A program made the translations under genes and the position numbers. This document shows, piece after piece, positions 652 through 30,329 of a stretch of 30,329 nt of DNA. The stretch lies in the IMG/VR virus record IMGVR_UViG_2778261591_000021, one strand, 5' to 3'. The stretch's first letter is position 1, and each line of letters begins with the position of its first letter. Origin of the DNA: a virus. Taxonomy: Duplodnaviria > Heunggongvirae > Uroviricota > Caudoviricetes. A model generated the notes under the pieces. It searched no databases. It saw nothing but the letters and a program-made list of their open reading frames with translations, and was not told the DNA's origin.

Positions 652-690
652 GTTCACAGATAAAATACTCTCCAGGAAACCCGGGGCGGT
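1..690 (+). mobile_element. IS3-family insertion sequence, right-hand part (left part lies outside the window)
   Basis: Transposase OrfB reading frame runs in from the window start and ends at 651; about 40 bp of presumptive terminal sequence follows before the first phage gene stop at 691. The element boundary is inferred; the terminal inverted repeat was not identified. Confidence 0.55.
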
Positions 691-2298
691 TCAGTCCTCA
701 ATTAATTGCAGACGCTCAGTCATAGTTCGTTTGCCAAATGTTCTCGTCAACTCAATTTCTGCTGCCGCTTCACGGATATGACGTTGCAGCACGTAATTCA
801 CATCACTTTCAAGATAATCCCTGATAAGACTATCAGAAACATTTAATGTTCTTTCTTTCGTACTACCTGCGGCTTTTACAGAAAATACGCTGACAAAATC
901 CTGTGGAACCTTAGCACCAGTAATTTTATTAATTACGATATCCGCTGCAATTTCAGCATCCTCAGGATCCAGTGTTTTATTTCCTCTCGACCACCAGTCA
1001 ACCAAAATACGTCGAAATTTATCGCGTTCACTGATTATTTTTCCAACTTTATATATGCGTGGGAAATAGCTTGCCTGGCCTAATGCTTTCAGTTCTTCAT
1101 CTGGCGGCAATAAACCAAGCTTTTGCATTTCAACTTTCACCCGATTTAATACAGTTCGCATCGCCTGCGCCGTTTCCTGAACAACAGGATTAGCATGCAC
1201 ATCACCGCTTCGCATAGCATTCCCAACCTGCTGACGAAATGAATCAAAACTCATGTCACCACCATCAGCTTTATACTTTGCGTATGCCTGTTTATTTCCG
1301 ACAACAACAGCAGCTTCTTCACGCTGCCATCCACGTGTACGGGTTTCTACAGCTACCGGTGTTTCAATCCCCCTTTCATTTCCTTTAAGGGTGAAATTAT
1401 TTTCGGCTAACTCCAGCGCTGTTTTTCGCACCGTCTTGGACGGAGACTCCATTAACCTTGTCAAAGGAGTAAGATAGCTCCCTGCTTTCCATGCAGCCTT
1501 TCCAACCCACCCACCGGAAACAGGGGTTAAATCATCCAGAGCCGCTGTATCAATTTTCATAGCACCAACACTACCACCATCGGAAAGCGAAGCGGCAGCC
1601 CTGTCAGTCGCTGATGTAATGCTCATATTATCAAGAGCATCAGCAACCTCACGTGTGGCTGCAGCCCGGACGGATGGCGAAAGCGCAACACCAGCACTGG
1701 CAAACACGCCGCTCATCATCGCACCCGCTGCAACGTGAGCGGCACTTTCACCCCATGAGCGTGTTATTTGCTGATTATTCAGTACAACCTCGCTTAATGC
1801 TGTACCGGCAGCACCAATCGCAATCTGTGAGCCAATACGCGCCAGTGCCCCTCCTTGAGCACCGGGAATAAACATTGACGCAACAGTAACCGGATCCATT
1901 CCCGCAGCAATACTGGCAAGGGTTCCAACTACGCCAGCATCAGACAATAAACGTCTGTCTTCATTTTCATCATCTATCTGCTGCTTAATCCACGCCGTTT
2001 CCTCTGGCGATCGGGAATCTGCAAATTTCGCCCCCCAGTATTCATAACCGTGCAACTCATTTTTATCAGCATATGGGTTATAACCCTCGACCGGTTCAAA
2101 CTGTCTGGCTGGGCGGAAAAAACCAGACAGAATATTGTTCTGTCGCATTGCAGCCCCCCATACGGAAGGCTCAGGTGGCAATGGCTCAGGATTAGCCCCT
2201 TCCGGAAGGGCAACATCAAACCCAGTTTGTTCCGGCAAAACGTTACCTGACGGGATCAGTCCGTTATTAAGATCTTCAGCTTGTGCATAAACTGGCAT
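691..2298 (-). CDS. virion protein, 535 aa (internal virion/ejection protein or tail-associated)
   Basis: Last gene of the translationally coupled structural operon; its start overlaps the stop of the upstream 905-aa gene. Ala/Gly-rich. Function is assigned from position only. Confidence 0.4.
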   Translation of the reverse strand: MPVYAQAEDLNNGLIPSGNVLPEQTGFDVALPEGANPEPLPPEPSVWGAAMRQNNILSGFFRPARQFEPVEGYNPYADKNELHGYEYWGAKFADSRSPEETAWIKQQIDDENEDRRLLSDAGVVGTLASIAAGMDPVTVASMFIPGAQGGALARIGSQIAIGAAGTALSEVVLNNQQITRSWGESAAHVAAGAMMSGVFASAGVALSPSVRAAATREVADALDNMSITSATDRAAASLSDGGSVGAMKIDTAALDDLTPVSGGWVGKAAWKAGSYLTPLTRLMESPSKTVRKTALELAENNFTLKGNERGIETPVAVETRTRGWQREEAAVVVGNKQAYAKYKADGGDMSFDSFRQQVGNAMRSGDVHANPVVQETAQAMRTVLNRVKVEMQKLGLLPPDEELKALGQASYFPRIYKVGKIISERDKFRRILVDWWSRGNKTLDPEDAEIAADIVINKITGAKVPQDFVSVFSVKAAGSTKERTLNVSDSLIRDYLESDVNYVLQRHIREAAAEIELTRTFGKRTMTERLQLIED

Positions 2299-5015
2299 TA
2301 TTTAGATCCCCACGAAAAGTAATCTTTAAATTTGTCCATACGTTCGTTATGCAGGCGCTGATACTGCTCATCCAGAGCGCGATGCTTGTCTTTGAAGTTT
2401 CGTATAGCCTGTCCACGCATAATTTCTTCCTGCTCGTACTGCTCCCGTTCCTGCTGCATTTTCTTATAGGGTTCCCAATCTTCTAGTGATGGTTCCCAAC
2501 GCATAGGACGCCCATGTTTGTTATAAAACGGCTGGACCCGATCGATGCCATTTTCATCCTTAGTTCTTACCATAATGGCGTAATCACCATTACGGGGTGT
2601 TAACACGTCAGGGGTTATGAATAATTCTCCATTAATACGACTCTCAGGGGTTTTTGTCTCAACTACAGGAGCATTACCTGACGTGATCCCAAGCAACGTC
2701 GGGCTGGTTGTTATAATCTCTTTGCGCTCACCGTACATCAGCCGTTCTTTTTCAGCTTTCCACTGCGCCGCCTGCCAGCCTGACGGCCCATATTGATAAA
2801 GCGCCTCCGGTGCATATTTCATAAACTGCGCTTCTCCGTTAACCTCGCTGATACTCCAGGTGCGGGCTATCTGCTGGTTGGTCATTTGCTTCGCTACGTC
2901 AGCGTTACCACCAGCAACGCGGTAGTTAATGTCATACAGCGTCTGATAGTCATTACGGAATCTAGCTGCTTCCGGCGTCTGGTCATCCGCAGACGGATCC
3001 CAACGGAACCACTGCGCCATATTGCTGACAGCAGAATTCATCGCCTTGCTGCGATCATTTTTGTACTCTTTTGAACTCTGCGTTGATGCCAATTGAGCTT
3101 TAAGAGCATCGGTCTGGTTGTACGTAAGGTTCTGCGCCTGCTCGATAGCCGCATCAGCAGACATGCCAGAATCAGTTAGTTGCTTAACAGTCAGATAAAA
3201 ACCCTGCATATCCTTCGGCATATTTCCAATAGATGCATTGTCTGTTTCATATAACCGACTAAACAGTTCCGCCGCATTTTTAACCACTTCCTGATTGCTG
3301 GATCGGGATACTGCTGAAAGCTGCGTGATGATCTGCGAAGGCATTATGCCAGTCTGAGCCACAAGCCGAACAACCCCATCATGAGTGGAGGCATCATTAA
3401 TACGAAAGTTCTGCGCCATTTCTGTGTAATCAGCAGCTTTCTGCATTGACTTGTTGCTTGGGTCTAATTTTTCACCTATTGTCAGCGCCTCATTGAATCT
3501 GCGTGAATCCCGTTGCGCCTGAATTGCTTCATTTGATCTCTGAAGCAATGCAGACAATTTTCCGTAAGCATCGAGTTTTAACGCATAGTGAGGATCGTTA
3601 ACCTCAGGCTTCACTTTCTGCATTTCTTCTTGCTGCTGAGAAGGAGGCAAATACTGAATTGCCTGGAATATTCTCGCGTTATCAATCGCTATATCCAGTT
3701 GATTGATTATTTTATCTGCGTTTTTTCCATACCCCCTGATGATGGTCTCCTGAGCCGGTATATAATCTGGAACCTCACCGTTATATAGCTGGGCCATGGT
3801 GTTATTAATAGCTGGCTCAAGCTGTTCTAATATTAACTTCCTTTGCTTTTCTATCTGACTATTAGCAAGGTTATCTATTTGATAAATAGTCAGCGGATCC
3901 ATTCCAGTTTTATTTTTTCTATATCGGGAAAGCCACCCTTGTGTTTCTGATGGAAGATTTCGGATAAATTCTTCTTCTGATATTTCACCTTTACGTGGAT
4001 CACCGACTTTGGCGATCAGTTTATCCACGTTACCCATCCCCCAGTTATATGCTGCTCCGGTCAATATTTCGGAACCGTACTTACCATACAGTTGATTTAC
4101 ATAGTCACTGGCGAGCATTTCATGCTGTTGTTCGTCCGTAGGGTTGTATTCAACGCCACGCTTGGCCGCCAGTTCTTTTCCTGTGCCCGGCATTAACTGG
4201 TATTTCCCCTGGGCTCTCTCTCCAGAAGATGTTATCGGTCCCTCAAGAAGACTACCATCAGGATTAAAATGTCGATCACCTGATTCAACAAGGCGTATGG
4301 CACGCATGTCCATGCCTCCAGAATCATTTTTCTGAAACAGACCATTTAGCCATCCTTCTGGATTGGCAGCGGCATAATTCTTCGCCCGCATTTCTGTGGC
4401 ACTGCGATCATCACTTTCTATTTCTTCCAGAATGCGTTCTTGTGACCATCCCCTGGCAGCTCCATATCTGGCAATGGCTACCATTCTGGAATTTCTGGCT
4501 AAAGTGGCAGTTTGCGGGTCATTCCAGGCATCCGCTTCATTTTGTATCCATAATTTTCTCGTTGCCTGATATTGCTCATCTTCATAGGCATTTGTCTGCC
4601 CTATCTCATGTCTGAGAACTCCAGTACTGAACTGAATTTTCTGTGTTCTGGCTTGTTGCAAAAACATATTTCTTGCAGCTTCATCAGTCAATGAAGCAGC
4701 TATTTCTTCCACATCCTGATCAAATCCAGATATGTACTCTTGCCCCTTACCAATCGCATTTTTGCCTTGTTGTGCATAAAAACCGGTTTGAGGGTTATAA
4801 AGACGTTCATTGCTGCGCTGATTAAGCTGAAGGATGGCATCCTGAGACAATGCAACATTCGCTTTCTGCCTGGCTTCACCATATGCCACCGCATACTGAT
4901 CTGCGACATTCGCCAGCACCTGACCTGCTTGAGGAACATCGAAGGTCTGAAAACCACCGGTTTGCACACCACGACTTTGCACCTGACGTCCGGATACTGT
5001 TGGTACGACTGGCAT
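2298..5015 (-). CDS. internal virion protein with lytic transglycosylase (SLT) domain, 905 aa
   Basis: Contains SLT-like motifs (ES...GKYQLMPGTGKE...AAYNWGMGNV). Start re-assigned to the ATG at 5015, which has a GGAGG Shine-Dalgarno 7 nt upstream and overlaps the upstream stop as TAATG; the track ORF extends to 5090. Confidence 0.7.
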   Translation of the reverse strand: MPVVPTVSGRQVQSRGVQTGGFQTFDVPQAGQVLANVADQYAVAYGEARQKANVALSQDAILQLNQRSNERLYNPQTGFYAQQGKNAIGKGQEYISGFDQDVEEIAASLTDEAARNMFLQQARTQKIQFSTGVLRHEIGQTNAYEDEQYQATRKLWIQNEADAWNDPQTATLARNSRMVAIARYGAARGWSQERILEEIESDDRSATEMRAKNYAAANPEGWLNGLFQKNDSGGMDMRAIRLVESGDRHFNPDGSLLEGPITSSGERAQGKYQLMPGTGKELAAKRGVEYNPTDEQQHEMLASDYVNQLYGKYGSEILTGAAYNWGMGNVDKLIAKVGDPRKGEISEEEFIRNLPSETQGWLSRYRKNKTGMDPLTIYQIDNLANSQIEKQRKLILEQLEPAINNTMAQLYNGEVPDYIPAQETIIRGYGKNADKIINQLDIAIDNARIFQAIQYLPPSQQQEEMQKVKPEVNDPHYALKLDAYGKLSALLQRSNEAIQAQRDSRRFNEALTIGEKLDPSNKSMQKAADYTEMAQNFRINDASTHDGVVRLVAQTGIMPSQIITQLSAVSRSSNQEVVKNAAELFSRLYETDNASIGNMPKDMQGFYLTVKQLTDSGMSADAAIEQAQNLTYNQTDALKAQLASTQSSKEYKNDRSKAMNSAVSNMAQWFRWDPSADDQTPEAARFRNDYQTLYDINYRVAGGNADVAKQMTNQQIARTWSISEVNGEAQFMKYAPEALYQYGPSGWQAAQWKAEKERLMYGERKEIITTSPTLLGITSGNAPVVETKTPESRINGELFITPDVLTPRNGDYAIMVRTKDENGIDRVQPFYNKHGRPMRWEPSLEDWEPYKKMQQEREQYEQEEIMRGQAIRNFKDKHRALDEQYQRLHNERMDKFKDYFSWGSK

Positions 5016-14930: not shown

Positions 14931-15749
14931 ATGAAAAACTTCAAGGTAATTAGCATGTTTGAATCGTTCAAAGAGCTGTTTTTATCTACTGCCAATACTG
15001 CCGTGAATCGAGCCAAAAACCCTGTGCTTGGTGCTTTTGTTATGTCCTGGTGCGCCTTCAACTGGAAATCAATTCTTTATCTATTTTTTAGCAAATCAAA
15101 CATAATAGATAAAATTTCATATATCTCAGATAACAGCACATGGAAAACTGTTATGTTTTATCCATGCTTATCTGTAATTGCTATCTGCTGCCTATTACCA
15201 TGGGTAAACAATATCATTAACGTATGGCAAGCAAAGCCTCTTGATAATAATGACTCAATCGAAAATCACCTGAAGGCAAGAAAAATCCAGCGTGAAACAA
15301 GACTGCAGAGGTTATTGGCTAAAAAAGATGTTACATACGACAAAGTTAAGACTGGCGCGGAAAAAGACATCCAAGAGATGAAAGAAGAGATTATTCGATC
15401 AAAGAATAGTATGGGGGAATTGACTGCCGAGTTGAAAGCTAAAGATGACGAATTGAGATCCGCCAGTGCACAGTTAGCAGCTCTAAATCATTCATTAAAA
15501 GAGATATCGGAAACTCTTGGAAGAATGAATGAGGCATATAAGACCCTCCAAAATGATTTCGACGAATACAAACTCAAATACCCTGAAAAATCTCAAATAA
15601 AAAGCCTTGCACTTGGCAACGGCCAAACAATTAGCAACGTTTTGGAGCAACACAACTTATCCGGATTAAAATCTGGTAAGCCAAACGTTTTTAATAACTT
15701 TGGTGTTCTATCTGGATTATCAGGTTTCGAGGATAAAAATAAAGACTAA
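14931..15749 (+). CDS. AT-rich accessory (moron) protein, 272 aa: two predicted TM helices plus a long coiled-coil domain; function unknown
   Basis: Opposite strand to all flanking structural genes and visibly AT-rich relative to them. ATG at 14931 has AAAGG upstream; the track ORF starts at TTG 14898. Hydrophobic segments are VLGAFVMSWCAFNWKSILYLFF and VMFYPCLSVIAICCLLPWV; heptad-like charged region from about residue 100 to 220. Confidence 0.6.
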   Translation: MKNFKVISMFESFKELFLSTANTAVNRAKNPVLGAFVMSWCAFNWKSILYLFFSKSNIIDKISYISDNSTWKTVMFYPCLSVIAICCLLPWVNNIINVWQAKPLDNNDSIENHLKARKIQRETRLQRLLAKKDVTYDKVKTGAEKDIQEMKEEIIRSKNSMGELTAELKAKDDELRSASAQLAALNHSLKEISETLGRMNEAYKTLQNDFDEYKLKYPEKSQIKSLALGNGQTISNVLEQHNLSGLKSGKPNVFNNFGVLSGLSGFEDKNKD

Positions 15750-17221
15750 GCATATGGATCGTACTCGGTAAGCGCCTTGCCTTGCTGGTTCTGCTGCCCG
15801 GGAAGTCGCAGGCGCTTTGACACCGGGAAAGCAAACGTCAGCAGTAGCGCATCGCCTTTACCAGGCGAACGCCCAAGTCGTTCTTTGATATCTTCCTTCG
15901 GTTCGATAACGATTTTACCGTCCACGCGAACTTTGTACTCTGCCGCCGACAGATCGTCCGCTGTTTCCTGGTCATCCAGCATCCCGCCCAACCTCAGCCA
16001 TGTCTTGCATGAGTTGAACATCTCCCCGCGCTTGTTAAGCATCTGCGGGTCAGTGGACGCACCGCCGAACGGAACAAGTTGCCATGTACGCCCCCAGCCA
16101 TCACCGATTGACTTCAAACCGGTTCCGTAACCGAAGTCGATGAACACCGCGTCAGCCTGATACTGGTCTTCAAAGTCAGCGATACGCTTCGCCATAATCA
16201 GATCGTCGGTAGTCTTGTTGCCAGTCCATAGCACCTTACTATGCAACCCCTGCCGCAGGTATATCACCGCGTCATCAACGCCTGAATATGCCGGGTCAAC
16301 ACCGATTATCACCGGAGCATGTGCCACCTGCGCAGCGGTTACCACCCGTTTCATTGCCTCATCAGTAAGACCGGTAGGGATAAACTGCAATTCAGATGCA
16401 TCAGGGAATATGCCGCGCACACGGATTTTAACGAAGTCGCTGTCTTCCCCGTAGTCATCAACCCATTTCTGCAACTGCTGTTTGTTAGTACCTTCCACCG
16501 TCCGGCTGTCAATCTGCGCAGTTTTCCAGCGGTGTTTGTATTTGCGGAAACATTCGCGAAAACGCCCGGTATTACGTGTAGGGTTTCCGAACGCCACCCA
16601 GATAATCTCAGTGTCTTCGTCCGTAAGCGCACCCTCAGCAACTTCCCACACCAGATCCGCAATGTTCGACGCTTCATCGAATACCACGATGATGCGTTTG
16701 CGCTCGTTGTGTAGTCCGGCGAATGCCTCAGTGTTGTGCTCAGACCAGGGGATTGCGTCAGCTCGCCACCGCTTGTCGTGCCCAGGATCATTGCTGTACA
16801 TCGCAGTAGCGGTACAGGTAAACCAGTCTTTCGTGATAGCAAGGTTCGACCACTTGATAATTTCCGGCCAGGTCTTCGTTCGTAGCTGGTTGTCGGTGTT
16901 GGCGGTCACCACGACCTTACAATCCTCGCAAGTGGACATGCCCCAGTTGATCAGCATTGAGATGAATGCGGATTTACCAATACCATGACCAGAAGCGCGT
17001 GCCAGCATAAGCGGCTGATAGCGCGTCTCTGGATTCTGCAGGTGATCACGTATCTCTCGGAACGCATCAGCCTGCCACTGACGTGGGCCGGTAGCATGTG
17101 CCAGTTCAGTCCCCTCTTCCCCCCACGGGAACGCATATAGGGCATAGCCAAGCGGATCGTGAGTGAACCCTGCAATATCCTCGATCAACTGCTCTTCAGG
17201 AGATAACGCTGTATCTGTCAC
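15746..17221 (-). CDS. terminase large subunit, 491 aa
   Basis: Walker A-like GHGIGKS, ATPase and nuclease acidic blocks (VVFDEAS, GVDPAYSG), and position after the small subunit with overlapping stop/start. Confidence 0.9.
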   Translation of the reverse strand: MTDTALSPEEQLIEDIAGFTHDPLGYALYAFPWGEEGTELAHATGPRQWQADAFREIRDHLQNPETRYQPLMLARASGHGIGKSAFISMLINWGMSTCEDCKVVVTANTDNQLRTKTWPEIIKWSNLAITKDWFTCTATAMYSNDPGHDKRWRADAIPWSEHNTEAFAGLHNERKRIIVVFDEASNIADLVWEVAEGALTDEDTEIIWVAFGNPTRNTGRFRECFRKYKHRWKTAQIDSRTVEGTNKQQLQKWVDDYGEDSDFVKIRVRGIFPDASELQFIPTGLTDEAMKRVVTAAQVAHAPVIIGVDPAYSGVDDAVIYLRQGLHSKVLWTGNKTTDDLIMAKRIADFEDQYQADAVFIDFGYGTGLKSIGDGWGRTWQLVPFGGASTDPQMLNKRGEMFNSCKTWLRLGGMLDDQETADDLSAAEYKVRVDGKIVIEPKEDIKERLGRSPGKGDALLLTFAFPVSKRLRLPGQQNQQGKALTEYDPYA

Positions 17222-22064: not shown

Positions 22065-22865
22065 TTACTTGATAAATCCTGCCGCCTTTCCCCGCCTGTA
22101 TTCCTCCATCAGCCACTGTGCCGGTGTTATTCCACCCAGGGTGGCGGCGTTAGGCATGCACCCGAAACTTCGCCCTGGTGGATGGTAAACGTCTCTCCCT
22201 GTGTCCGGAGGTGTACTCATGGGTTCTGGCTTTGCCTGTATGCTGATCACCGGATCGGGTATCTGCTGTCCGGAAGCCACCTTTTTCGCCCAATCATCGA
22301 GCAACCTGCGCGCGTGTTTCTCAACCTCAATCTCGCTAAGCTGGCGCTGATACATTGCACGGCGGGTATCACATACGACCCAGTACATAACCGGATGTCG
22401 CCACGGGAATCTTTCTGGACCACCAGGATATAAACTTTTTTCCTTGCTGTACCGGTGAAACTCCGCCATCACATCGTCAATGGTGACGCCAAGAACCATC
22501 TTGCTGTCTTTGCACCACTTGATGAATTGCCCAGGCGACGGCCAGAACGGAGATTCACTGGCGCGGGCGTGGCGCATACCAGCAGAAACCTGTTCACGGG
22601 TTCGGATCCCACCTTCGGCAAACGCAGCAATCCACTGCTGTTTTGCAGCAACTTCCTGCTCTGGCGTCTTCAGGTTGGTTACCACTGCCGCCGGAAACAG
22701 CTGTTTCAGCTGTTTGAAAAGGGCATCAACAAGCCTCTCTGCTGACATGTTCACCACATTGTCATTGTTGACGTACTGATGCTCATAACCTGACATGCGA
22801 GAAAGGGCTTCTCCGTCATGGTTTTGTATCGCGGTAAAAACGTTGTTCACAAGAAATCCTCCCAT
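22065..22865 (-). CDS. replication protein P-like (replicative helicase loader), 266 aa
   Basis: Recalled similarity to lambda P blocks (SPGQF.xWC, YP..FPW....YW.V, RRLLDDW...G..IP.PV) and position directly after the O-like gene. The first 19 nt overlap the O-like gene. Confidence 0.7.
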   Translation of the reverse strand: MGGFLVNNVFTAIQNHDGEALSRMSGYEHQYVNNDNVVNMSAERLVDALFKQLKQLFPAAVVTNLKTPEQEVAAKQQWIAAFAEGGIRTREQVSAGMRHARASESPFWPSPGQFIKWCKDSKMVLGVTIDDVMAEFHRYSKEKSLYPGGPERFPWRHPVMYWVVCDTRRAMYQRQLSEIEVEKHARRLLDDWAKKVASGQQIPDPVISIQAKPEPMSTPPDTGRDVYHPPGRSFGCMPNAATLGGITPAQWLMEEYRRGKAAGFIK

Positions 22866-23662
22866 GCTTCAGGGCTGTTCCAGTGCGGAACGTTGTTATC
22901 AGGTAATGTTGATTGCTTCTGTCTGCTAATCTGCAGCCGCCTTGCCAGCTTCTGCTCCCACTGTGCCTGATGGTATGCCTTACCCTCAGCCATCCAGTAA
23001 ATTCTGAACTCTGCAAGTTCCTGTGCCGTTGGCAGACTGTCCAGGTAGATCCCCTGCAATGAGCTTTTCCGAAGAAAGTCATCTGATGGCTGCCATTGTT
23101 CATGCATGACAAATTTGCCTAATTGCCCTGGCCCACCAGGAGGAACAAAGTTATTCATCACGGCGTTGTTTGCGCCGGGGTCATGATGCACAGAATCCCC
23201 GTTTTTTGTCCTGCTCTCCCTCTCTTGGTTAAATGACTGGTTATATGACTGGTTCTGGATCCCGTTTTTGGGATCATTCAACATCCCGTTTTTGGGATCA
23301 TTCAACATCCCGTTTTTGGGTATATTCCCGTTTTCGGGTATATTCCCGTTTTCGGGTTCATTGCCCCCCTCCCGGTTGCCTTTAATGTTCCCGTTTTTGG
23401 TTATATTAAGAGAGAAAACCCGCACTCTTTTTGTCGCTCCCTTTCTATCTCCGGTATCTGAAATAAGCCCCATTTTCATGAGCGATATAAGCCCGGCCTG
23501 CACGGTTTTTTTATTCAGGCAAGTGTCTTTAACGAGGCGTTCTATGCTGGGGTAGCAGAGGTTATATTCATCGGCTCTGTCAGCCATCGAGAGCAGTATG
23601 AGCTTTAATGATGAGCTACCTGGATCTGTCTCCCAGGCCCAATCTGTTGCATGTCTGCTCAT
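22847..23662 (-). CDS. replication initiator O-like protein with internal iteron array, 271 aa
   Basis: N-terminal HTH-type initiator region; central PENGNI/PKNGMLND peptide repeats are encoded by the DNA iterons; position before the P-like gene. Confidence 0.65.
   Translation of the reverse strand: MSRHATDWAWETDPGSSSLKLILLSMADRADEYNLCYPSIERLVKDTCLNKKTVQAGLISLMKMGLISDTGDRKGATKRVRVFSLNITKNGNIKGNREGGNEPENGNIPENGNIPKNGMLNDPKNGMLNDPKNGIQNQSYNQSFNQERESRTKNGDSVHHDPGANNAVMNNFVPPGGPGQLGKFVMHEQWQPSDDFLRKSSLQGIYLDSLPTAQELAEFRIYWMAEGKAYHQAQWEQKLARRLQISRQKQSTLPDNNVPHWNSPEAWEDFL
23259..23407. repeat. origin-like iteron array: six copies of core CCCGTTTT(T/C)GG, including two perfect 24-bp tandem units
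   Basis: Units ATCCCGTTTTTGGGATCATTCAAC at 23259-23282 and 23283-23306, with further copies near 23309, 23327, 23345 and 23390; a direct repeat ATGACTGGTT x2 is adjacent. Confidence 0.7.
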
Positions 23663-24413: not shown

Positions 24414-24998
24414 ATGAAAAGTATCCAGGACGTCCGCAGGCAAAATCTCAACGACTTGATCGACCGTGAATTCAATGGTGTTCAGACGCGGATGGCAGAA
24501 AAACTTGGAACTCAGGCAAATCTGGTAAACCGCTGGGCTCTTGGCAAGAAGGTTATCGGCGACCAGGTTGCGCGAAAAATTGAAGCTGCCGCCAATAAAC
24601 CCCGTAACTGGCTTGATATCGATCGCTCGCTTTCTCAGGAAGGTTTTCAGCCTGTCGGCCCAAGCGACATTGGTCAGCTGGCGGCTCACAACCTGGAACG
24701 CTGGATGAGCGAAAGCCGCGACCTTTCAACGCAGGGAAAACTTCACCGCGCATCCGGCGTCGCCCAGGTGACAATCAGTCGCCTGTTAAACAATGAGGTC
24801 AGCGTTTCCATTTCCACCCTGGAGAATGTTGCATCCGCATTCGGGCGTCACGGATATGAACTACTGATTCACCCGCACGACCCTGCGACTATCAACTATG
24901 ACCGCTCACGCTACGCATTGTTACCCGAAACCGAGAAAGCAAAGATCGAAAGTTACATTGAATTTGTCATCAACCAGAACGAAAAAAGCAAACAATAA
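24414..24998 (+). CDS. repressor-like protein with two tandem XRE-type HTH domains and no LexA/S24 peptidase domain, 194 aa
   Basis: HTH 1: TRMAEKLGTQANLVNRWALGKK. HTH 2: KLHRASGVAQVTISRLLNNEVSVSISTLENVASAFG. Occupies the cI position and is followed by its own terminator. Confidence 0.6.
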   Translation: MKSIQDVRRQNLNDLIDREFNGVQTRMAEKLGTQANLVNRWALGKKVIGDQVARKIEAAANKPRNWLDIDRSLSQEGFQPVGPSDIGQLAAHNLERWMSESRDLSTQGKLHRASGVAQVTISRLLNNEVSVSISTLENVASAFGRHGYELLIHPHDPATINYDRSRYALLPETEKAKIESYIEFVINQNEKSKQ

Positions 24999-25018: not shown

Positions 25019-25043
25019 AAGCCGCCTCATGGCGGCTTTTTTA
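25019..25043 (+). terminator. rho-independent terminator after the repressor-like gene
   Basis: AAGCCGCC-tcat-GGCGGCTT stem followed by TTTTATT. Confidence 0.65.
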
Positions 25044-25055
25044 TTGCCAGATAGA

Positions 25056-25132
25056 TTACCTTACGGGTAATTTTTTTAACTCATATCTATTGACACCAAA
25101 CCAAATAAGCATAATTATTACCTCAACGGTAA
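25056..25132 (+). promoter_or_regulatory. early-left-type promoter (TTGACA at 25090-25095) bracketed by two operator palindromes
   Basis: TTACCTTACGGGTAA at 25056-25070 and TTACCTCAACGGTAA at 25118-25132; the downstream site overlaps the -10 and transcription start region. Confidence 0.55.
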
Positions 25133-25306: not shown

Positions 25307-25606
25307 ATGAACGTTAATCAGCAGAAAAATCTTCAAAAAATCATGCTGGCATTCGACAAGGACTACCGCCTGTCAGAACAGCTATATGACCGACAAGTTG
25401 AACTGATTGAGAGCATCCGACTTCATCAACTGTCCTCAACTTTCGACGTTGTAACAGGCAAAGGCGTTCGTCATGAAGTGCTGGAGGCTGCTAAAGACAG
25501 CCCTGAGTTCGAAGAACTGATGGATGCCTACCGGCGCGAGGCAATGGCAATTATAGCGCGCTGGGATCTGGCGGATCAGCTTGATGGGCAGAGGGACGCG
25601 GCATGA
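25307..25606 (+). CDS. hypothetical early protein, 99 aa
   Basis: ATG at 25307 with GGGAGGG RBS; the track ORF starts 15 nt earlier inside the preceding small ORF. Confidence 0.45.
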   Translation: MNVNQQKNLQKIMLAFDKDYRLSEQLYDRQVELIESIRLHQLSSTFDVVTGKGVRHEVLEAAKDSPEFEELMDAYRREAMAIIARWDLADQLDGQRDAA

Positions 25607-26502
25607 TGCGGAACGCTGGAATCATGGATAGAACAAAATACATCGGAGGAAGCGATGTTGCAGGGATTCTTGGAATTAGCCCATGGCGCACCCCGCTTGA
25701 GGTTTATCTGGATAAGGTCCAGCCACGTGTCAAACCAGTAGACCCAAGCAAGCAGAAAGTTTTCACGCGTGGCCAGCGTATGGAGCCATACGTAATAGAC
25801 CTGCTTTCTGAGGAAACAGGGATGGAAATCGTTCATCGCGGAAACCGCTATATCCACCGTGATTACGATTTTATTGCAGCTGAGATCGATGCAGAAGCAG
25901 CGTCAGGCGAGAACATTGAGATCAAAACAGTTAGTCCGTTCAAAGCCAAAGAATGGGGAGAAATCCAGACAGATGCAATTCCTGTGCATTACACGGCCCA
26001 GGCCATGCACGGGTTGATGGTTACAAACAAACAGGTATGCGTTTTCGGTGTGCTTATCGGTGGCGACGACTTCCGAATCTATCGGGTTGAGCGTGATGAA
26101 GAAACTATCCAGGCGATCTTAGAAAAAGAAATCGCTTTCTGGGACCGAGTGAAAAATCTTAACCCGCCGGAAGCTGCCAGCGTAAGCGATGTATCGCTGA
26201 TGTTTGAGAAAGATGCCGGGACAAGTATCGAGGCTGACGGAAAGGCACTCGCACTATTCAACGATCTACGAGACATGAAATCACGCAGAAAATCACTGGA
26301 AGAAGAAATAGCTATATCAGAAGAGAAGCTGAAGATGTACATGCAAGAGCACTCAGTCCTGACCCTGGACGGAAAGCCGCTCTGCACATGGAAATCTCAG
26401 ATCAGCAACAGATTCGACCAGAAGCTATTCCAGTCAGTACACCCTGAGTTATTCGAAAAATTCAAAACAACAACGACACAACGCGTCTTCAGAATGAAGT
26501 AA
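25603..26502 (+). CDS. YqaJ-type viral recombinase exonuclease, 299 aa
   Basis: N-terminal YIGGSDVAGILGISPWRTPLEVY motif; paired with the downstream RecT gene; GAGGGA RBS. Confidence 0.75.
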   Translation: MMRNAGIMDRTKYIGGSDVAGILGISPWRTPLEVYLDKVQPRVKPVDPSKQKVFTRGQRMEPYVIDLLSEETGMEIVHRGNRYIHRDYDFIAAEIDAEAASGENIEIKTVSPFKAKEWGEIQTDAIPVHYTAQAMHGLMVTNKQVCVFGVLIGGDDFRIYRVERDEETIQAILEKEIAFWDRVKNLNPPEAASVSDVSLMFEKDAGTSIEADGKALALFNDLRDMKSRRKSLEEEIAISEEKLKMYMQEHSVLTLDGKPLCTWKSQISNRFDQKLFQSVHPELFEKFKTTTTQRVFRMK

Positions 26503-26511
26503 GGAGAAAAA

Positions 26512-27534
26512 ATGTCTATCAATGCACTTAAGGCAGCGGCTACCGGTAACCAAGTTGCACATCATAATGAGAAACCAACAACTCTGGCCGGACTTCTGGC
26601 AGACCCAAAAATTAAAGCTCAGATGGCTTTGGCACTTCCAAAGCACATGACAGCAGACCGTCTGGCGCGCATAGCAACCACAGAGATCCGAAAGGTTCCA
26701 AAACTTGCATCATGCGACCAAGCCAGCTTCCTGGGGGCAATTATGCAATGTGCCCAATTGGGTCTTGAACCAGGCGGAGCTCTTGGACACGCTTACCTGA
26801 TACCGTTCGACAAACGCCAGAAAGTAAATGGAAGATGGGAAACCGTATCTACAGAAGCACAGCTGATTATCGGCTATCGCGGAATGATTGACCTTGCCCG
26901 CCGCTCTGGGCAGATCCTGAGTATCTCGGCTCGTACCGTACATACAAACGACAAATTCAGCTACTCATACGGCCTGGAAGAAACGCTCGAGCATTTACCT
27001 TGCGAAACAGGTGACCGCGGAGAATTAACGCACGTTTACGCCGTTGCACGACTGAAAGATGGCGGAGTCCAATTTGAAGTTATGAGCCGGGCAGACATTG
27101 AGAAAGTTCGTGCACTGAGCAAAGCCGGTAGCAGTGGCCCATGGGTTGATCACTTCGATGAGATGGCTAAAAAAACAGTAATTCGCCGACTATTCAAATA
27201 TCTTCCTGTTTCTATTGAAATGCAGAAGGCTGTTGTTATGGATGAGCGCGCTGAAGCTGGACTTAGCCAAGATAACGCAGCTGTTATCACTGGTGAATAT
27301 TCCGTAGTTGACGATGAGCGTCAACACCTGTCGCCAATTTCAGATTCAGAACGAGAAGAAGCTCGAGAATATATCATCGCGATACTTAATAGCCTGGATC
27401 CATCTGCTGAAGATGCAAAAACGATGTTCAAGCGCGCTGAAAATGAGATTAACACCATGGCTGAAAAGCTCGGTGATGAATATCACCAAAAATTCATGAT
27501 GACGCTTAACGATATGCGTCAAGAATTCGAGTAA
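26512..27534 (+). CDS. recT: RecT-family single-strand annealing protein, 340 aa
   Basis: RecT-like core (ASCDQASFLGAIMQCAQLGLEPGG...AYLIPF); AAGGAG RBS; follows the YqaJ exonuclease gene. Confidence 0.8.
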   Translation: MSINALKAAATGNQVAHHNEKPTTLAGLLADPKIKAQMALALPKHMTADRLARIATTEIRKVPKLASCDQASFLGAIMQCAQLGLEPGGALGHAYLIPFDKRQKVNGRWETVSTEAQLIIGYRGMIDLARRSGQILSISARTVHTNDKFSYSYGLEETLEHLPCETGDRGELTHVYAVARLKDGGVQFEVMSRADIEKVRALSKAGSSGPWVDHFDEMAKKTVIRRLFKYLPVSIEMQKAVVMDERAEAGLSQDNAAVITGEYSVVDDERQHLSPISDSEREEAREYIIAILNSLDPSAEDAKTMFKRAENEINTMAEKLGDEYHQKFMMTLNDMRQEFE

Positions 27535-27583: not shown

Positions 27584-27832
27584 ATGAAAGGTGCATTAGG
27601 TAAGAAGGAACTCCTGGCGGTGGTTCCACTGTCATGGAGCACTATCGACCGTATGGAGCGCGCAGGGGAATTTCCTAAACGCTGGTATATCACCGATAAA
27701 CGCTGCGCATGGAACCGTGATGAAGTTGAGCGTTGGCTTGATGAACGTCAGGCAGCAAGCCCGGCAGAGTTCCAGGGTAAAAAACCTCCTGTTCAGCAAC
27801 GTGTATATCGTCCTGTGAGCAACGCTGCATGA
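27584..27832 (+). CDS. AlpA-family phage regulatory / excisionase-like protein, 82 aa
   Basis: Small HTH protein (LLAVVPLSWSTIDRMERAGEFPKRWYI...RCAWNRDEVERWLDER) matching the AlpA/Xis pattern from memory. Confidence 0.55.
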   Translation: MKGALGKKELLAVVPLSWSTIDRMERAGEFPKRWYITDKRCAWNRDEVERWLDERQAASPAEFQGKKPPVQQRVYRPVSNAA

Positions 27833-27974
27833 GTGCGCTGCTAAGGCACTGGAGCAAATGGTCAGGATGGTACTTATTCCTGGCCTCTGTTTCAGCATGG
27901 CTTTATCTGCTGGCATTAATTTTCAGAGAGGGTTGGATTAAGTGAGAAAGTTAAGCCGACTTGAAAAATATCAC

Positions 27975-28241
27975 ATGAACAAGGTTTCAATGCGCAGCCC
28001 TTCAAAGGTTGTTGCCGTTACTCCTGCGGCGATAGAGATCGAAAAACGCGCGATTGAAAGAGAGAAAAAAGGGCAGTTCCGCATTGCCGCCCACCTTTGG
28101 CTTCAGTGTATGGATGTTGCTTCTGGTGATGTTGAGCGTGCAAGGATCGCGGTTCGCAGGGACCAATGTATCACAAAAGGTAACGGCCTTCGCCGTGGCG
28201 ACTATAGCGGCATAGGATGTTGTGGGGTGGTTTATGACTAA
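27975..28241 (+). CDS. PerC/Pch-family-like small transcriptional regulator (tentative), about 88 aa
   Basis: Core EREKKGQFRIAAHLWLQCMDVA resembles the PerC-family signature as I recall it. ATG at 27975 preferred over the GTG at 27942. Confidence 0.35.
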   Translation: MNKVSMRSPSKVVAVTPAAIEIEKRAIEREKKGQFRIAAHLWLQCMDVASGDVERARIAVRRDQCITKGNGLRRGDYSGIGCCGVVYD

Positions 28242-28884
28242 GAAATACACACTAATCTATGCAGATCCACCTTGGGTATACCGGGACAAAGCCGCAGATG
28301 GTAATCGCGGTGCCGGTTTTAAATATCCGGTTATGAGTGTGCTGGATATCTGCCGCCTTCCTGTGTGGGATTTGGCCGATGAAAACTGTCTGTTGGCCAT
28401 GTGGTGGGTGCCAACACAACCACTCGAAGCACTAAAAGTTGTTGAAGCCTGGGGATTTCGTCTGATGACGATGAAGGGCTTCACGTGGATAAAATGTGGT
28501 AGTCGACAACCAGATAAACTGGTTATGGGTATGGGGCACATGACTCGCGCCAATAGTGAAGATTGCCTGTTTGCGGTAAAGGGAAAACTACCTACGCGCA
28601 TTAATGCAGGGATCGTTCAGTCATTTACCGCACCGCGGCTTGAGCATTCAAGAAAACCAGATATCGTTCGTGAAAAACTTGTGCAATTGTTAGGCGATGT
28701 TTCTCGCATTGAACTGTTCGCCCGCCAGTCGTCTCATGGCTTCGATGTTTGGGGTAATCAGTGCGAAGACCCGGCAGTGCAACTACACCCTGGATACGCG
28801 TTGGATATTGGCGGATTAACAAATGCATTCAGCAATGCTCCGCTGTCACCAACAGACAACCAGGGGCGGGAGCGTGCAGCATGA
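28234..28884 (+). CDS. MT-A70-family N6-adenine DNA methyltransferase, 216 aa
   Basis: Catalytic DPPW motif (LIYADPPWVY); ATG at 28234 with GGGGTGG RBS; the track uses a GTG at 28222. Confidence 0.7.
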   Translation: MTKKYTLIYADPPWVYRDKAADGNRGAGFKYPVMSVLDICRLPVWDLADENCLLAMWWVPTQPLEALKVVEAWGFRLMTMKGFTWIKCGSRQPDKLVMGMGHMTRANSEDCLFAVKGKLPTRINAGIVQSFTAPRLEHSRKPDIVREKLVQLLGDVSRIELFARQSSHGFDVWGNQCEDPAVQLHPGYALDIGGLTNAFSNAPLSPTDNQGRERAA

Positions 28885-29075
28885 ACCGGGCATCACCAGC
28901 AGATTTAAGGAAATGCCTTGAAACTGCAAACATGCTTGCACACAGCGGGATCAGGTTTGTTCCCATTCCCGCTGTCACTGATGCTGAATTTGCAACGCTG
29001 TCAGCAATATTCGAAAACAAAATTGAATCACTGGCAGCAGAAGCAAAGATGGAAGAAAATCAGCAGAACTATTAA
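28881..29075 (+). CDS. hypothetical protein, 64 aa
   Basis: ATG overlaps the methyltransferase stop as ATGA; last gene before the convergent integrase. Confidence 0.4.
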   Translation: MNRASPADLRKCLETANMLAHSGIRFVPIPAVTDAEFATLSAIFENKIESLAAEAKMEENQQNY

Positions 29076-29078
29076 ACG

Positions 29079-30329
29079 TTATTCCCCCGCCATCCACTTC
29101 TCAAACTTCGACGGGGAGAACGGAATCAGATCCGTATGCTCCCCGTTAATCCAGGAATCAATCATATCGGCCCACTGCTGCAACATGTAGGCGCGCTGTC
29201 TGGCGTATTCCGCTTTGTTATATACGGCGCGCACACCTTTCTGCTCATGTGCCAGAGCCTTTTCAATCCAGTCTGAAGGATAACCAGCCTCATGCAACAA
29301 CGTACTGGCTGTACGGCGCATATCGTGTACGGTGAAGCCCTGAATATGCTCACCATCTTCATTTATTATTTTCACCGTTCTGTCGATCAGAGAGTTCAGC
29401 GCGGCATTAGATAATGGCTTCCGGAAATTGTAACGACCAGGAACCAGATATTCACTTCCACCAGCGCACATCTGCAACCCAACCAATATATCCTGTGCCT
29501 GTTTAGGCAGGTAAATAACGTGCGCCCGGCTTCCCTTCATGCGGTCTGAAGGAATTGTCCATGTCCATTTTTTAAAATCTATTTCATCCCACGTTGCATT
29601 GGTGAATTCGCCTTTACGAACCATAGTGATAAGCACCAGCTTTAAAGCCATTTTCATAGTGCCCATAGCACCAATGGCATCCAGCGTGCGGAAGAACAGG
29701 CCAATTTCTTCTGGTGTCAGTGTTCGCTCTCGTGGTTTAAATATGGCGATAGACGAAGGTTTAATGTCAGCCGCAGGATTAAACAAACCATGACCACGGT
29801 CATTGGCGTGACGGTATACGCTGCTGATGATCTCCCTGGCCTGTACTGCTGTTGCCCGACCACCGCGTTCGACAATCCGGTCACACAAATCACGAACCAT
29901 CGATGTGGTAATTTCAGCCATCATTTTGTTGCCAAGAACCGGAAGTATGTCACGGTCGATCACCGCCTGCTTCATTGCGCGGGTACTGTCAGCCAAGATG
30001 ACGTGTTTCATATAACTGTCGGTATGTACCGCAAACGTCTCGGCACCACGAATCTTTTTGATACCGTCACGTTTAGCCGCAGCCGGCGACTGGCCTGCTT
30101 TAAGCAGCTTCTTTGCAGCAATCAGTTCTTCTCGCGCTTCTGCCAGGCTGATACCGTCACGCCCATACTGCCCGATTACCAGTGTTTCGCGGCGACCGTT
30201 GATACGGTAGTCATAGCGAAACGAGACCGTGCCTGACGTAAGCACAGCTACATACAGCCCGTCACGATCGGAGACCTTGTACAGTTTGTCCTGCGGCTTG
30301 AGGTTTTTTAATTTTGTATCGGTAAGCAC
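29079..30329 (-). CDS. int: P4-type tyrosine integrase, N-terminus cut by the window end
   Basis: N-terminal LTDTKLKNLKPQDKLYKVSDRDGLYV arm-binding-type region, C-terminal catalytic region (HDMRRTASTLLHEAGYPSDWIE...VYNKAEY). The frame is open at the window edge. Confidence 0.85.
   Translation of the reverse strand: MLTDTKLKNLKPQDKLYKVSDRDGLYVAVLTSGTVSFRYDYRINGRRETLVIGQYGRDGISLAEAREELIAAKKLLKAGQSPAAAKRDGIKKIRGAETFAVHTDSYMKHVILADSTRAMKQAVIDRDILPVLGNKMMAEITTSMVRDLCDRIVERGGRATAVQAREIISSVYRHANDRGHGLFNPAADIKPSSIAIFKPRERTLTPEEIGLFFRTLDAIGAMGTMKMALKLVLITMVRKGEFTNATWDEIDFKKWTWTIPSDRMKGSRAHVIYLPKQAQDILVGLQMCAGGSEYLVPGRYNFRKPLSNAALNSLIDRTVKIINEDGEHIQGFTVHDMRRTASTLLHEAGYPSDWIEKALAHEQKGVRAVYNKAEYARQRAYMLQQWADMIDSWINGEHTDLIPFSPSKFEKWMAGE

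What the first reader, a model, noticed from the sequence alone, without database searches (positions are those of the whole stretch)
27975..28241. PerC/Pch-like small regulator carried next to the integrase
The core (KKGQFRIAAHLWLQCMDV) resembles the PerC family, whose prophage-borne members activate host virulence loci in pathogenic E. coli. If correct, this prophage could influence host gene expression beyond its own cycle. The call is from memory of the family signature and is tentative.
Basis: inference. Interest (0 to 1): 0.5.

Follow-up and report, generated by a model that had tools for sequence, protein, structure and literature searches.

The report
Phage PerC-family small regulator gene
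The ORF is a real, already-annotated PerC-family gene of a phiV10/epsilon15-type prophage, but it is a divergent core-only member sitting in the repressor-controlled early operon, so nothing here shows that it switches on host virulence genes.

Summary
The ORF and the quoted peptide are there.

Three corrections:
- **Start codon.** The CDS most likely starts at GTG 27942 (99 aa), not ATG 27975. The 11 extra residues are conserved and under purifying selection.
- **Partial match.** Only the N-terminal half of the PerC model matches. The C-terminal module shared by PerC, a 104-aa Pch-length relative and EcCIMP1_025 is missing. The protein belongs to a separate subfamily (phrog_868, epsilon15 gp31 / phiV10 p34).
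- **Not a moron.** The gene is translationally coupled inside the early-left operon: RecT, AlpA, a 38-aa protein, this gene, a methylase, then DUF1382 and the convergent integrase. That operon starts at an operator-flanked promoter, so expression is expected on induction or infection rather than in stable lysogeny.

The subfamily keeps this position in epsilon15-like prophages of Salmonella, Enterobacter and Kosakonia, so its conserved role is unlikely to be specific to the E. coli LEE virulence island.

RefSeq already names this exact protein "PerC family transcriptional regulator", and it occurs in 535 of 5426 complete E. coli genomes. Its function is untested. Low interest.

The parts
27942..28241 (+). 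PerC-family CDS, 99 aa, GTG start, TAA stop. Orthologue of epsilon15 gp31 and phiV10 p34; identical to RefSeq WP_001228937.1.
27975..27977 (+). Not conserved as Met in most orthologues.
27942..28040 (+). Subfamily-specific basic N-terminal extension, residues 1-33, net charge about +6, predicted helix at residues 6-17. Absent from PerC, Pch-type and ANR proteins.
28044..28181 (+). PerC core, residues 35-80, which matches Pfam PerC positions 5-50. It forms most of three predicted helices (28-42, 46-59, 63-80) and carries A37, E41, R47, A49, W53, L54, R66, R72, R73 and C76.
28182..28238 (+). Short C-terminal tail (NGLRRGDYSGIGCCGVVYD), modelled with low confidence (pLDDT below 50 for residues 88-99). 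Y88, G95, V96 and Y98 are invariant in the subfamily. It takes the place of the 'MGL...FRL' module of full-length PerC proteins.
27829..27945 (+). Upstream 38-aa membrane-protein ORF (phrog_17484). Its TGA stop overlaps the GTG start of the PerC-like gene (GTGA).
27584..27832 (+). AlpA-family excisionase/regulator gene. Its stop overlaps the start of the 38-aa ORF (ATGA).
28234..28884 (+). MT-A70 DNA adenine methyltransferase gene. Its ATG lies 8 nt inside the end of the PerC-like gene (ATGACTAA).
28881..29075 (+). DUF1382 gene, the last gene of the operon. It overlaps the methylase stop.
29079..30329 (-). P4-type tyrosine integrase gene, convergent with the operon. In related genomes the prophage sits at the 3' end of guaA.
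25090..25118 (+). Sigma-70-like promoter (TTGACA, 17 nt, AATTAT; 10 of 12 matches). It lies downstream of the repressor-gene terminator and is the presumed early-left promoter that drives the operon containing the PerC-like gene.
25056..25132 (.). Two exact TTACC-N5-GGTAA palindromes (25056-25070 and 25118-25132) that bracket the promoter. They are presumed repressor operators and correspond in position to the repressor-binding sites annotated in epsilon15.
24414..24998 (+). HTH repressor gene, followed by an intrinsic terminator at 25019-25038.

Best explanation
This is the gp31/p34-type PerC-family gene of an epsilon15/phiV10-like (Uetakevirus) prophage.

Shown:
- It encodes a 99-aa, basic (pI 9.8), mainly helical protein.
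- Its central three-helix core is homologous to the core of EPEC PerC and of Pch-type proteins.
- The gene is a conserved, purifying-selected member of the phage's early-left operon and is translationally coupled to its neighbours.
- That operon starts at a promoter bracketed by operator-like palindromes next to the repressor gene.

Inferred:
- The protein is made on infection or prophage induction together with the recombination, excision and methylase functions, and not in the stable lysogen.
- It acts as a small accessory regulator rather than a classical HTH factor.
- By analogy with Pch/PerC (relief of H-NS/StpA/Hha silencing at bound loci) and with the related ANR proteins (direct binding of AraC-type regulators and H-NS), the three-helix core most likely contacts a nucleoid-associated or transcription-factor partner that is common to Enterobacteriaceae. 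The basic N-terminal arm may contact DNA.
- The effect would be on phage or host transcription during the early lytic or induction phase.
- Any effect on LEE or other virulence loci would be a side effect in hosts that carry them, and its sign cannot be predicted.
For: **Family**
- Pfam PerC scores 30.3 bits, above the gathering score of 22.6.
- Identity to EPEC PerC is 40% over 60 aa, E 2e-10; hhalign probability is 95%.
- Identity to the other full-length PerC proteins is 36-45% over the core.
- The core residues are kept.

**Subfamily**
- phrog_868 matches at 1.1e-54 over the full length.
- PerC, EcCIMP1_025 and P0151 fall in phrog_994 instead.

**Selection**
- dN/dS is 0.11-0.14.

**Operon and regulation**
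- Start and stop codons overlap with both neighbours.
- No promoter-like or terminator-like site lies on the + strand between 25118 and 30095.
- The promoter at 25090-25118 is flanked by TTACCN5GGTAA sites. The window has 11 such sites against 0.39 expected.
- Epsilon15 has repressor sites annotated at the equivalent place.

**Conserved position in other hosts**
- The position is the same in epsilon15, BUCT554 and prophages of E. coli and Kosakonia, while the flanking nuclease and methylase modules vary.

**Fold**
- The AF2 model has four helices, with core pLDDT of 78-89.
- No HTH-like match was found in the PDB; the best matches, not significant, are MIT/TPR three-helix protein-binding modules.
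- The core superposes at 0.6-0.9 A rmsd on 60-aa phage proteins, one of them named as ANR family.

**Mechanism of relatives**
- Pch relieves H-NS/StpA/Hha silencing (PMC4764244).
- ANR proteins bind AraC-type regulators and H-NS (PMC4983702, PMC5570504).
- Group 1 pch genes are strongly induced by an SOS-inducing drug, and deleting individual HTR regulators (pchA, pchB, pchC, pchE and ler were tested) has little effect on biofilm without induction (PMC6265319).
Against: - No experiment addresses this subfamily.
- Expression timing is inferred from consensus scans and from synteny with epsilon15 annotation, not from transcript data.
- The phage genome is not AT-rich (GC 0.42-0.53), so there is no obvious H-NS-silenced phage target.
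- The authors of the Pch study could not co-precipitate H-NS with PchA (PMC4764244), so the molecular partner of the core is unknown even for the prototype.
- The related prophage phiv142-3 (98.2% identical across the 1.6-kb region containing the gene) is reported to increase stress survival of its host, as cited in PMC9782041. Lysogen-level effects of such prophages therefore exist, although they have not been attributed to this gene.
Confidence: 0.4

Rival explanations
1. Pch/PerC-like virulence activator. The prophage protein activates ler/LEE1 or other H-NS-silenced host virulence loci in LEE-positive hosts and so acts as a lysogenic-conversion regulator.
For: - True homology to PerC and to a Pch-length protein over the core.
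- The prophage type occurs in STEC/EHEC backgrounds: phiV10 infects O157:H7, TL-2011b comes from O103:H25, and hits include CDC STEC strains.
- PerC and PchA/B/C activate LEE1 interchangeably (PMC5293775, citing Porter 2005).
Against: - Only the N-terminal half of the PerC model matches, and the C-terminal module is missing.
- It belongs to a different PHROG from PerC.
- Other PerC-family members have no effect on LEE1 or repress it (PMC6265319, PMC11773190).
- The gene is embedded in a repressor-controlled early operon with no promoter of its own.
- It is conserved in phages of Salmonella, Enterobacter and Kosakonia. That these genera lack LEE is my own knowledge, not tested here.
- The ZX5 lysogen showed no change in adhesion or virulence, though its host was probably LEE-negative (PMC9782041).
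Confidence: 0.12
2. ANR-like anti-activator. The protein binds AraC/XylS-family regulators and/or H-NS directly and damps their regulons, as Aar and Rnr do. This would resemble the LEE1-repressing PerC-family protein EcCIMP1_025.
For: - The NCBIfam ANR model hits at E 2.6e-5, 24 bits, in register with the core.
- 25 of 33 PerC-family relatives also hit the ANR model.
- PerC itself aligns with the EPEC ANR Rnr at E 9e-5.
- The modelled core superposes at under 1 A on a phage ANR-family protein.
- It has three core helices, as described for ANR proteins (PMC4983702).
- The authors of the EcCIMP1_025 study proposed the same idea (PMC11773190).
Against: - The ANR score is below the curated cut-off of 32 bits, and the same sub-threshold hit is given by the activator PerC (18 bits) and by P0151 (29.5 bits), so it does not discriminate function.
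- There is no direct BLASTP hit to Rnr, and hhalign probability is 3.5%.
- No match to the ANR PHROG (phrog_2227) at E 0.01 or better.
- The protein is larger than ANR proteins (11.2 kDa against under 10 kDa) and has extra N- and C-terminal segments.
Confidence: 0.2
3. Phage-internal regulator. The protein works with the adjacent AlpA-type excisionase/regulator, or on phage promoters (int/xis, late or immunity genes), to control the excision, recombination or lytic programme, and has no significant host targets.
For: - The gene keeps a constant position two genes downstream of alpA and upstream of int in all epsilon15-like prophages examined, while other modules are exchanged.
- AlpA and PerC-family genes also co-occur in Gram-negative PICIs (PMC11773190, PMC6092414).
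- Purifying selection is strong across hosts.
Against: - No phage-encoded target site or partner was identified.
- Over-expression studies in ZX5 identified the repressor, anti-repressor and integrase as the cycle determinants and did not test this gene (PMC9782041).
- Characterised relatives act on host loci.
Confidence: 0.25

Closest known systems
phiV10 p34 (YP_512289) and epsilon15 gp31 (NP_848239); RefSeq WP_001228937.1 'PerC family transcriptional regulator'
   Same: - Orthologues or the identical protein.
- The 1.6-kb region containing the gene is 98% identical to phiV10 at nucleotide level, with one nonsynonymous difference in the gene itself.
- About 79% nucleotide identity to epsilon15 over the shared region.
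- Same position in the early-left operon and same 300-nt length as epsilon15 gp31.
   Different: Nothing of substance. The phiV10 record starts the CDS at the internal ATG (88 aa). Some RefSeq records use 83 aa.
PerC of EPEC pEAF (pMAR2, WP_000405638.1)
   Same: - Homologous three-helix core: 40% identity over 60 aa, with the motif A-x3-E...R-x-A-x3-W-L...R...RR-x2-C and a following (D/N)YS-x-I.
- Small, basic protein.
- Carried on a mobile element.
   Different: - PerC matches the whole Pfam model (143 bits, positions 1-90); this protein matches only positions 5-50 (30 bits).
- PerC has a C-terminal 'KKMGL...FRN' module that is absent here.
- This protein has a 33-residue basic N-terminal extension.
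- PerC is in the plasmid perABC operon under the AraC-like PerA; this gene is in a phage early operon.
Pch proteins of EHEC (group 1 PchA/B/C, group 2 PchD, group 3 PchE)
   Same: - Prophage-borne PerC homologues.
- A 104-aa full-length PerC-family protein (P0151) shares 45% identity over 49 aa with this protein. Its identity with PchA was not verified.
- Group 1 pch genes are induced under SOS-inducing conditions (PMC6265319).
   Different: - Group 1 Pch proteins activate LEE1 by displacing H-NS/StpA/Hha (PMC4764244).
- Groups 2 and 3 have little effect on LEE, and PchE represses curli and flagella (PMC6265319, PMC7369912).
- This protein lacks their C-terminal module and sits in a different PHROG.
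EcCIMP1_025, PerC-family protein of a phage-inducible chromosomal island (WP_000617443.1)
   Same: - PerC-family protein on a phage-related element that also carries an alpA gene.
- 36% identity over 44 aa of the core.
   Different: - It matches the full-length PerC model (101 bits) and falls in phrog_994.
- It has been shown experimentally to repress LEE1 in C. rodentium (PMC11773190).
- It scores 31 bits on the ANR model against 24 bits here.
ANR family (Aar of EAEC, Rnr of EPEC; NCBIfam NF033650)
   Same: - Small proteins with three helices.
- Shared A...E(K/R)...A...W...R...C pattern.
- Sub-threshold HMM hit.
- The modelled core superposes on a phage ANR protein at under 1 A (PMC4983702).
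- Rnr itself lies in a Mu-like prophage.
   Different: - The score is below the family cut-off.
- No significant direct alignment to Rnr.
- ANR proteins are 4-9.5 kDa and act by binding AraC-type regulators and H-NS; that activity is untested here.

Membership tests
PerC family (Pfam PF06069) | Whole-protein HMM score at or above the gathering score (22.6 bits) | tested here: met
   30.3 bits, E 5e-7 for the 88-aa form; 30.1 bits for the 99-aa form.
PerC family (Pfam PF06069) | Match over the full 90-position model, including the C-terminal half | tested here: not met
   Only profile positions 5-50 align. PerC, EcCIMP1_025 and P0151 align over positions 1-90, 2-85 and 5-86. The C-terminal 'MGL...FRL' module is absent.
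PerC family (Pfam PF06069) | Significant pairwise homology to the prototype EPEC PerC | tested here: met
   BLASTP 40% identity over 60 aa, E 2e-10. hhalign of the subfamily profile against PerC: probability 95%, E 2.4e-8.
PerC family (Pfam PF06069) | Conserved core residues (A37, E41, R47, A49, W53, L54, R66, R72, R73, C76 in this protein's numbering) | tested here: met
   All are present. A49 and W53 are invariant and the others at least 90% conserved across 33 diverse family members.
PerC family (Pfam PF06069) | Activation of the LEE1/ler promoter, dependent on H-NS/StpA/Hha silencing | not testable with these tools
   Needs reporter assays. Not all family members do this (PMC6265319, PMC11773190, PMC4764244).
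epsilon15 gp31 / phiV10 p34 subfamily (phrog_868) | Full-length HMM match | tested here: met
   E 1.1e-54; residues 1-88 of the 88-aa form match profile positions 12-99 of 99.
epsilon15 gp31 / phiV10 p34 subfamily (phrog_868) | Synteny: RecT, AlpA, (small membrane ORF), this gene, (DUF1317), DNA methylase, int, in a prophage at guaA | tested here: met
   The guaA flank itself lies outside the window but is seen in the 100%-identical locus of strain 90-3040.
ANR family (NCBIfam NF033650) | HMM score at or above the curated cut-off (32 bits) | tested here: not met
   24.0 bits, E 2.6e-5. The bona fide ANR Rnr scores 56.9 bits; PerC scores 18.2 and EcCIMP1_025 31.1.
ANR family (NCBIfam NF033650) | Protein under 10 kDa made of three conserved alpha-helices | tested here: inconclusive
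   A three-helix core is predicted and superposes on a phage ANR model. However, the protein is 11.2 kDa and has an extra N-terminal helix and a C-terminal tail.
ANR family (NCBIfam NF033650) | Direct binding to AraC/XylS-family regulators and/or H-NS | not testable with these tools
   Needs two-hybrid or pull-down assays (PMC4983702, PMC5570504).
Moron / lysogenic-conversion gene | Autonomous transcription unit (own promoter and terminator) expressed from the repressed prophage | tested here: not met
   Start and stop codons overlap with both neighbours. No promoter-like or terminator-like site on the + strand between 25118 and 30095. The operon promoter is flanked by operator-like palindromes. 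This rests on consensus scans only; no transcript data.

The most novel reading that the evidence does not exclude
The gp31-type proteins would be a distinct branch of a single PerC/ANR superfamily of small three-helix proteins carried by phages and satellites. On this reading they act as early 'host-takeover' factors. On prophage induction or infection they would bind a conserved enterobacterial nucleoid or AraC-type regulator, so that induction rather than lysogeny transiently rewires H-NS-controlled host genes, including LEE in the STEC strains that carry this prophage.
Probability: 0.2. Interest if true: 0.5.

Novelty: already known. Interest (0 to 1): 0.15.

Why it matters
As it stands, this is a routine annotation. 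The exact protein is already in RefSeq as a PerC-family regulator, and its orthologues in phiV10 and epsilon15 have carried that label since those genomes were described.

The useful outcome is a caution. PerC-family membership does not predict activation of virulence genes, because characterised members activate LEE, ignore it or repress it. This member is also a truncated, core-only variant expressed with the phage's early genes.

About one in ten complete E. coli genomes carries it. If the protein does act on H-NS or AraC-type regulators during induction, that would link prophage induction to transient changes in host gene expression.

Tried and rejected
- **PDB sequence search.** No relative found, even at E up to 10.
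- **Foldseek against the PDB.** Nothing significant. The best hits were MIT/TPR three-helix bundles at E 0.27, used only as a weak hint of a protein-binding rather than an HTH fold.
- **AFDB50 fold search.** The library was not available.
- **hhalign of the subfamily profile against the EPEC ANR Rnr.** In register but not significant (probability 3.5%), so ANR membership was rejected.
- **Exhaustive profile search of 1.84 billion representatives.** Only 65 clusters reached E 1e-3 or better. It revealed no new relationship beyond PerC-family proteins and wHTH-PerC fusions.
- **Literature.**
  - No paper in the library tests the epsilon15/phiV10 gene.
  - Porter et al. 2005 (PMC543544) is not held.
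  - The ZX5 paper's 'regulatory proteins' turned out to be the repressor, anti-repressor and integrase, not this gene.
- **H-NS silencing of the phage genome.** I considered that the phage might need relief of H-NS silencing of its own genome, but base composition (GC 0.42-0.53) gives no support.
- **Ral-like modulator of the adjacent methylase.** Considered and rejected, because the methylase type varies (MT-A70, Dam, Dcm-Dam fusion) while the PerC-like gene stays constant.
- **P0151.** Its identity with PchA/B/C was not verified.

Full report
**1. Observation**

The + strand carries an ORF that ends at TAA 28239-28241 and contains the quoted peptide KKGQFRIAAHLWLQCMDV.

An alignment of 26 orthologues of 59-85% identity shows that the eleven residues before Met12 are conserved. 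The pattern is xKLxRLEKYH, with Y10 and H11 in at least 90% of sequences, and position 12 is usually not Met. Epsilon15 gp31 and the Enterobacter phage BUCT554 gene are both 300 nt and begin with ATG at the position equivalent to 27942.

Nei-Gojobori dN/dS against those two orthologues is 0.11-0.14 for the whole gene and 0.05-0.15 for codons 2-16. The CDS is therefore 27942-28241. GTG 27942 overlaps the TGA of the upstream 38-aa ORF (GTGA), and a GAGG lies 10 nt upstream. The gene is real and under purifying selection.

**2. What the window is**

The 1.6 kb around the gene is 98% identical to Escherichia phage phiV10 and its relatives: O157 typing phages 9 and 10, phiv142-3 and ZX5, with TL-2011b at 96%. 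The first part of that stretch, up to the end of the PerC-like gene, is 79% identical to Salmonella phage epsilon15. The rest of the window matches the same group.

This is an epsilon15-like (Uetakevirus) prophage. In a 100%-identical locus of E. coli 90-3040, and in other genomes, it sits next to guaA, as published for ZX5 (PMC9782041). The 300-nt gene occurs at 95% identity or better in 535 of 5426 complete E. coli genomes.

RefSeq already calls it 'PerC family transcriptional regulator' (WP_001228937.1). The exact protein is a MULTISPECIES RefSeq entry seen on about 1000 contigs. phiV10 p34 is annotated 'transcriptional activator, PF06069'.

**3. Family test**

| Comparison | Result |
|---|---|
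| Pfam PerC (PF06069) | 30.3 bits (gathering 22.6), E 5e-7; residues 24-69 of the 88-aa form on profile positions 5-50 of 90 |
| BLASTP to EPEC PerC (pMAR2) | 40% over 60 aa, E 2e-10 |
| hhalign, subfamily profile vs PerC | probability 95% |
| Near-invariant core residues in 33 diverse relatives | all kept (A37, E41, R47, A49, W53, L54, R66, R72, R73, C76) |

The membership is partial, however. PerC, the PICI protein EcCIMP1_025 and a 104-aa relative (P0151) match the whole model at 143, 101 and 79 bits. They share a C-terminal '...MG(L/I)...FR(L/N)' module that this protein lacks, and they fall in phrog_994.

This protein instead matches phrog_868 over its full length at E 1.1e-54. It carries a 33-residue basic N-terminal extension and a short conserved tail, DYSGI..GVVYD. 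It is about equally distant from the activator PerC (40%), P0151 (45%) and the repressor EcCIMP1_025 (36%) over 44-60 core residues.

**4. Relation to ANR**

NCBIfam's ANR model gives a sub-threshold hit of 24 bits against a cut-off of 32. This is a property of the whole family, not of this protein:
- 25 of 33 PerC-family relatives hit the ANR model at E 0.01 or better.
- PerC scores 18 bits, P0151 29.5 and EcCIMP1_025 31, while the true ANR Rnr scores 57.
- PerC aligns with Rnr at E 9e-5.

The AF2 model has mean pLDDT 72, with 78-89 over the core. It shows helices at 6-17, 28-42, 46-59 and 63-80 and a disordered tail. It has no significant PDB neighbour; the best are MIT/TPR-type three-helix bundles at E 0.27. 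Its core superposes at 0.6-0.9 A rmsd, with target TM-score 0.85-0.87, on 60-aa phage proteins, one of them named as ANR family.

PerC and ANR therefore look like one superfamily built on a three-helix core. This protein does not meet the ANR threshold, and a profile comparison with Rnr is not significant.

**5. Context and expression**

The genes from AlpA to DUF1382 are chained by overlapping start and stop codons:
- AlpA, 27584-27832
- 38-aa membrane ORF, 27829-27945
- PerC-like gene, 27942-28241
- MT-A70 methylase, 28234-28884
- DUF1382, 28881-29075

They converge on the integrase gene at 29079-30329.

A consensus scan finds no promoter-like or terminator-like site on the + strand between 25118 and 30095. 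The nearest upstream promoter (TTGACA, 17 nt, AATTAT; 25090-25118) follows the terminator of the repressor gene (24414-24998). It is bracketed by two exact TTACC-N5-GGTAA palindromes at 25056 and 25118. This palindrome occurs 11 times in the window against 0.39 expected. In epsilon15 the equivalent interval is annotated with three repressor-binding sites.

From this I infer that the gene belongs to the repressor-controlled early-left operon and is expressed on infection or induction. It does not look like a moron expressed in the lysogen. That inference rests on sequence features only.

**6. Conservation across hosts**

The order RecT, AlpA, (38-aa ORF), PerC-like gene, (DUF1317), methylase, int recurs in epsilon15 (Salmonella), BUCT554 (Enterobacter) and prophages of E. 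coli and Kosakonia. Named homologues come from Citrobacter, Klebsiella, Raoultella, Enterobacter, Erwinia and others.

The flanking modules vary while this gene stays fixed:
- The nuclease is either YqaJ or PD-(D/E)XK type.
- The methylase is MT-A70, Dam or a Dcm-Dam fusion.

A function conserved across these genera is unlikely to be activation of the E. coli/Citrobacter LEE. That the other genera lack LEE is my own knowledge, not tested here.

**7. What relatives do**

- PerC and PchA/B/C activate LEE1 (PMC5293775). Pch does so by reducing H-NS/StpA/Hha occupancy, and the effect disappears when those silencers are deleted (PMC4764244).
- PchD and PchE have little effect on LEE, and PchE represses curli and flagella (PMC6265319, PMC7369912).
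- Group 1 pch genes are strongly induced by an SOS-inducing drug. Deletions of individual HTR regulators (pchA, pchB, pchC, pchE and ler were tested) have little effect on biofilm without induction (PMC6265319).
- EcCIMP1_025, a full-length PerC-family protein of a PICI, represses LEE1 in C. rodentium (PMC11773190).
- ANR proteins bind AraC-type regulators and H-NS (PMC4983702, PMC5570504).
- A lysogen of ZX5 (97.7% identical over this region) showed no change in growth, biofilm, adhesion or virulence (PMC9782041). The same paper cites stress-survival effects for the related prophage phiv142-3.
- I found no paper that tests the epsilon15/phiV10 gene.

**8. Conclusion**

The gene is a divergent, core-only PerC-family member that is already annotated.

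The most likely role is a small accessory regulator made with the early lytic or induction genes. Its PerC/ANR-type three-helix core would engage a nucleoid-associated or transcription-factor partner, and its basic N-terminal arm may touch DNA. My confidence in that mechanism is about 0.4, against about 0.9 for family membership.

The rivals are a Pch-like virulence activator (0.12), an ANR-like anti-activator (0.2) and a purely phage-internal regulator linked to AlpA and Int (0.25). Novelty: already known. Interest: low.

Noticed in passing
window 14295, 14912, 17814, 17832, 21951, 22013, 23959, 24296, 24344, 25056, 25118 (each 15 nt): The palindrome TTACC-N5-GGTAA occurs 11 times (up to 1 mismatch) against 0.39 expected by chance. 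The sites are mostly in pairs, including pairs flanking the repressor gene and the early-left promoter. They look like repressor operators spread over several phage promoters.
   Followed up: partly
window 23226-23357: Three adjacent perfect or near-perfect tandem arrays (periods 12, 24 and 18 nt; 2.4-2.8 copies each) lie inside the minus-strand replication-initiator ORF 22847-23662. They look like iterons of a lambda-type origin.
   Followed up: partly
window 25603-27534: The recombination module is a separate YqaJ-type exonuclease plus RecT, as in epsilon15. In phiV10 the two are annotated as one fused RecE-RecT gene, and other relatives carry a PD-(D/E)XK nuclease instead. This is module shuffling around a constant AlpA/PerC-like pair.
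   Followed up: partly
window 27829-27945: A 38-aa ORF with a predicted C-terminal transmembrane helix (phrog_17484, E 2.6e-27) is conserved in epsilon15-like phages. It is translationally coupled on both sides, between alpA and the PerC-like gene. Function unknown.
   Followed up: no
L007 (E. coli E2348/69 chromosome 2719909-2722946), gene at 1501-1734: The EPEC ANR-family regulator Rnr lies among genes typical of a Mu-like prophage early region (AAA ATPase, DUF3164, DUF2786). This characterised 'antivirulence' regulator is therefore also phage-borne.
   Followed up: no
proteins P0138, P0144, P0145, P0147, P0152, P0160, P0167, P0171, P0176 (alignment A2): Some PerC-family proteins of 140-160 aa carry an N-terminal winged-helix-like domain fused to the PerC core; one member each gave weak HTH_24, MarR or HTH_27 hits. 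This suggests the core itself may be an effector or interaction module rather than the DNA-binding part.
   Followed up: no
window 1-5000, 15001-16000: The first ~5 kb of the window is not shared with most phiV10-like phages: matches start near 4960, or at 690 for TL-2011b. GC drops to 0.43 at 3001-4000 and to 0.42 at 15001-16000, which may mark exchanged or accessory modules.
   Followed up: no
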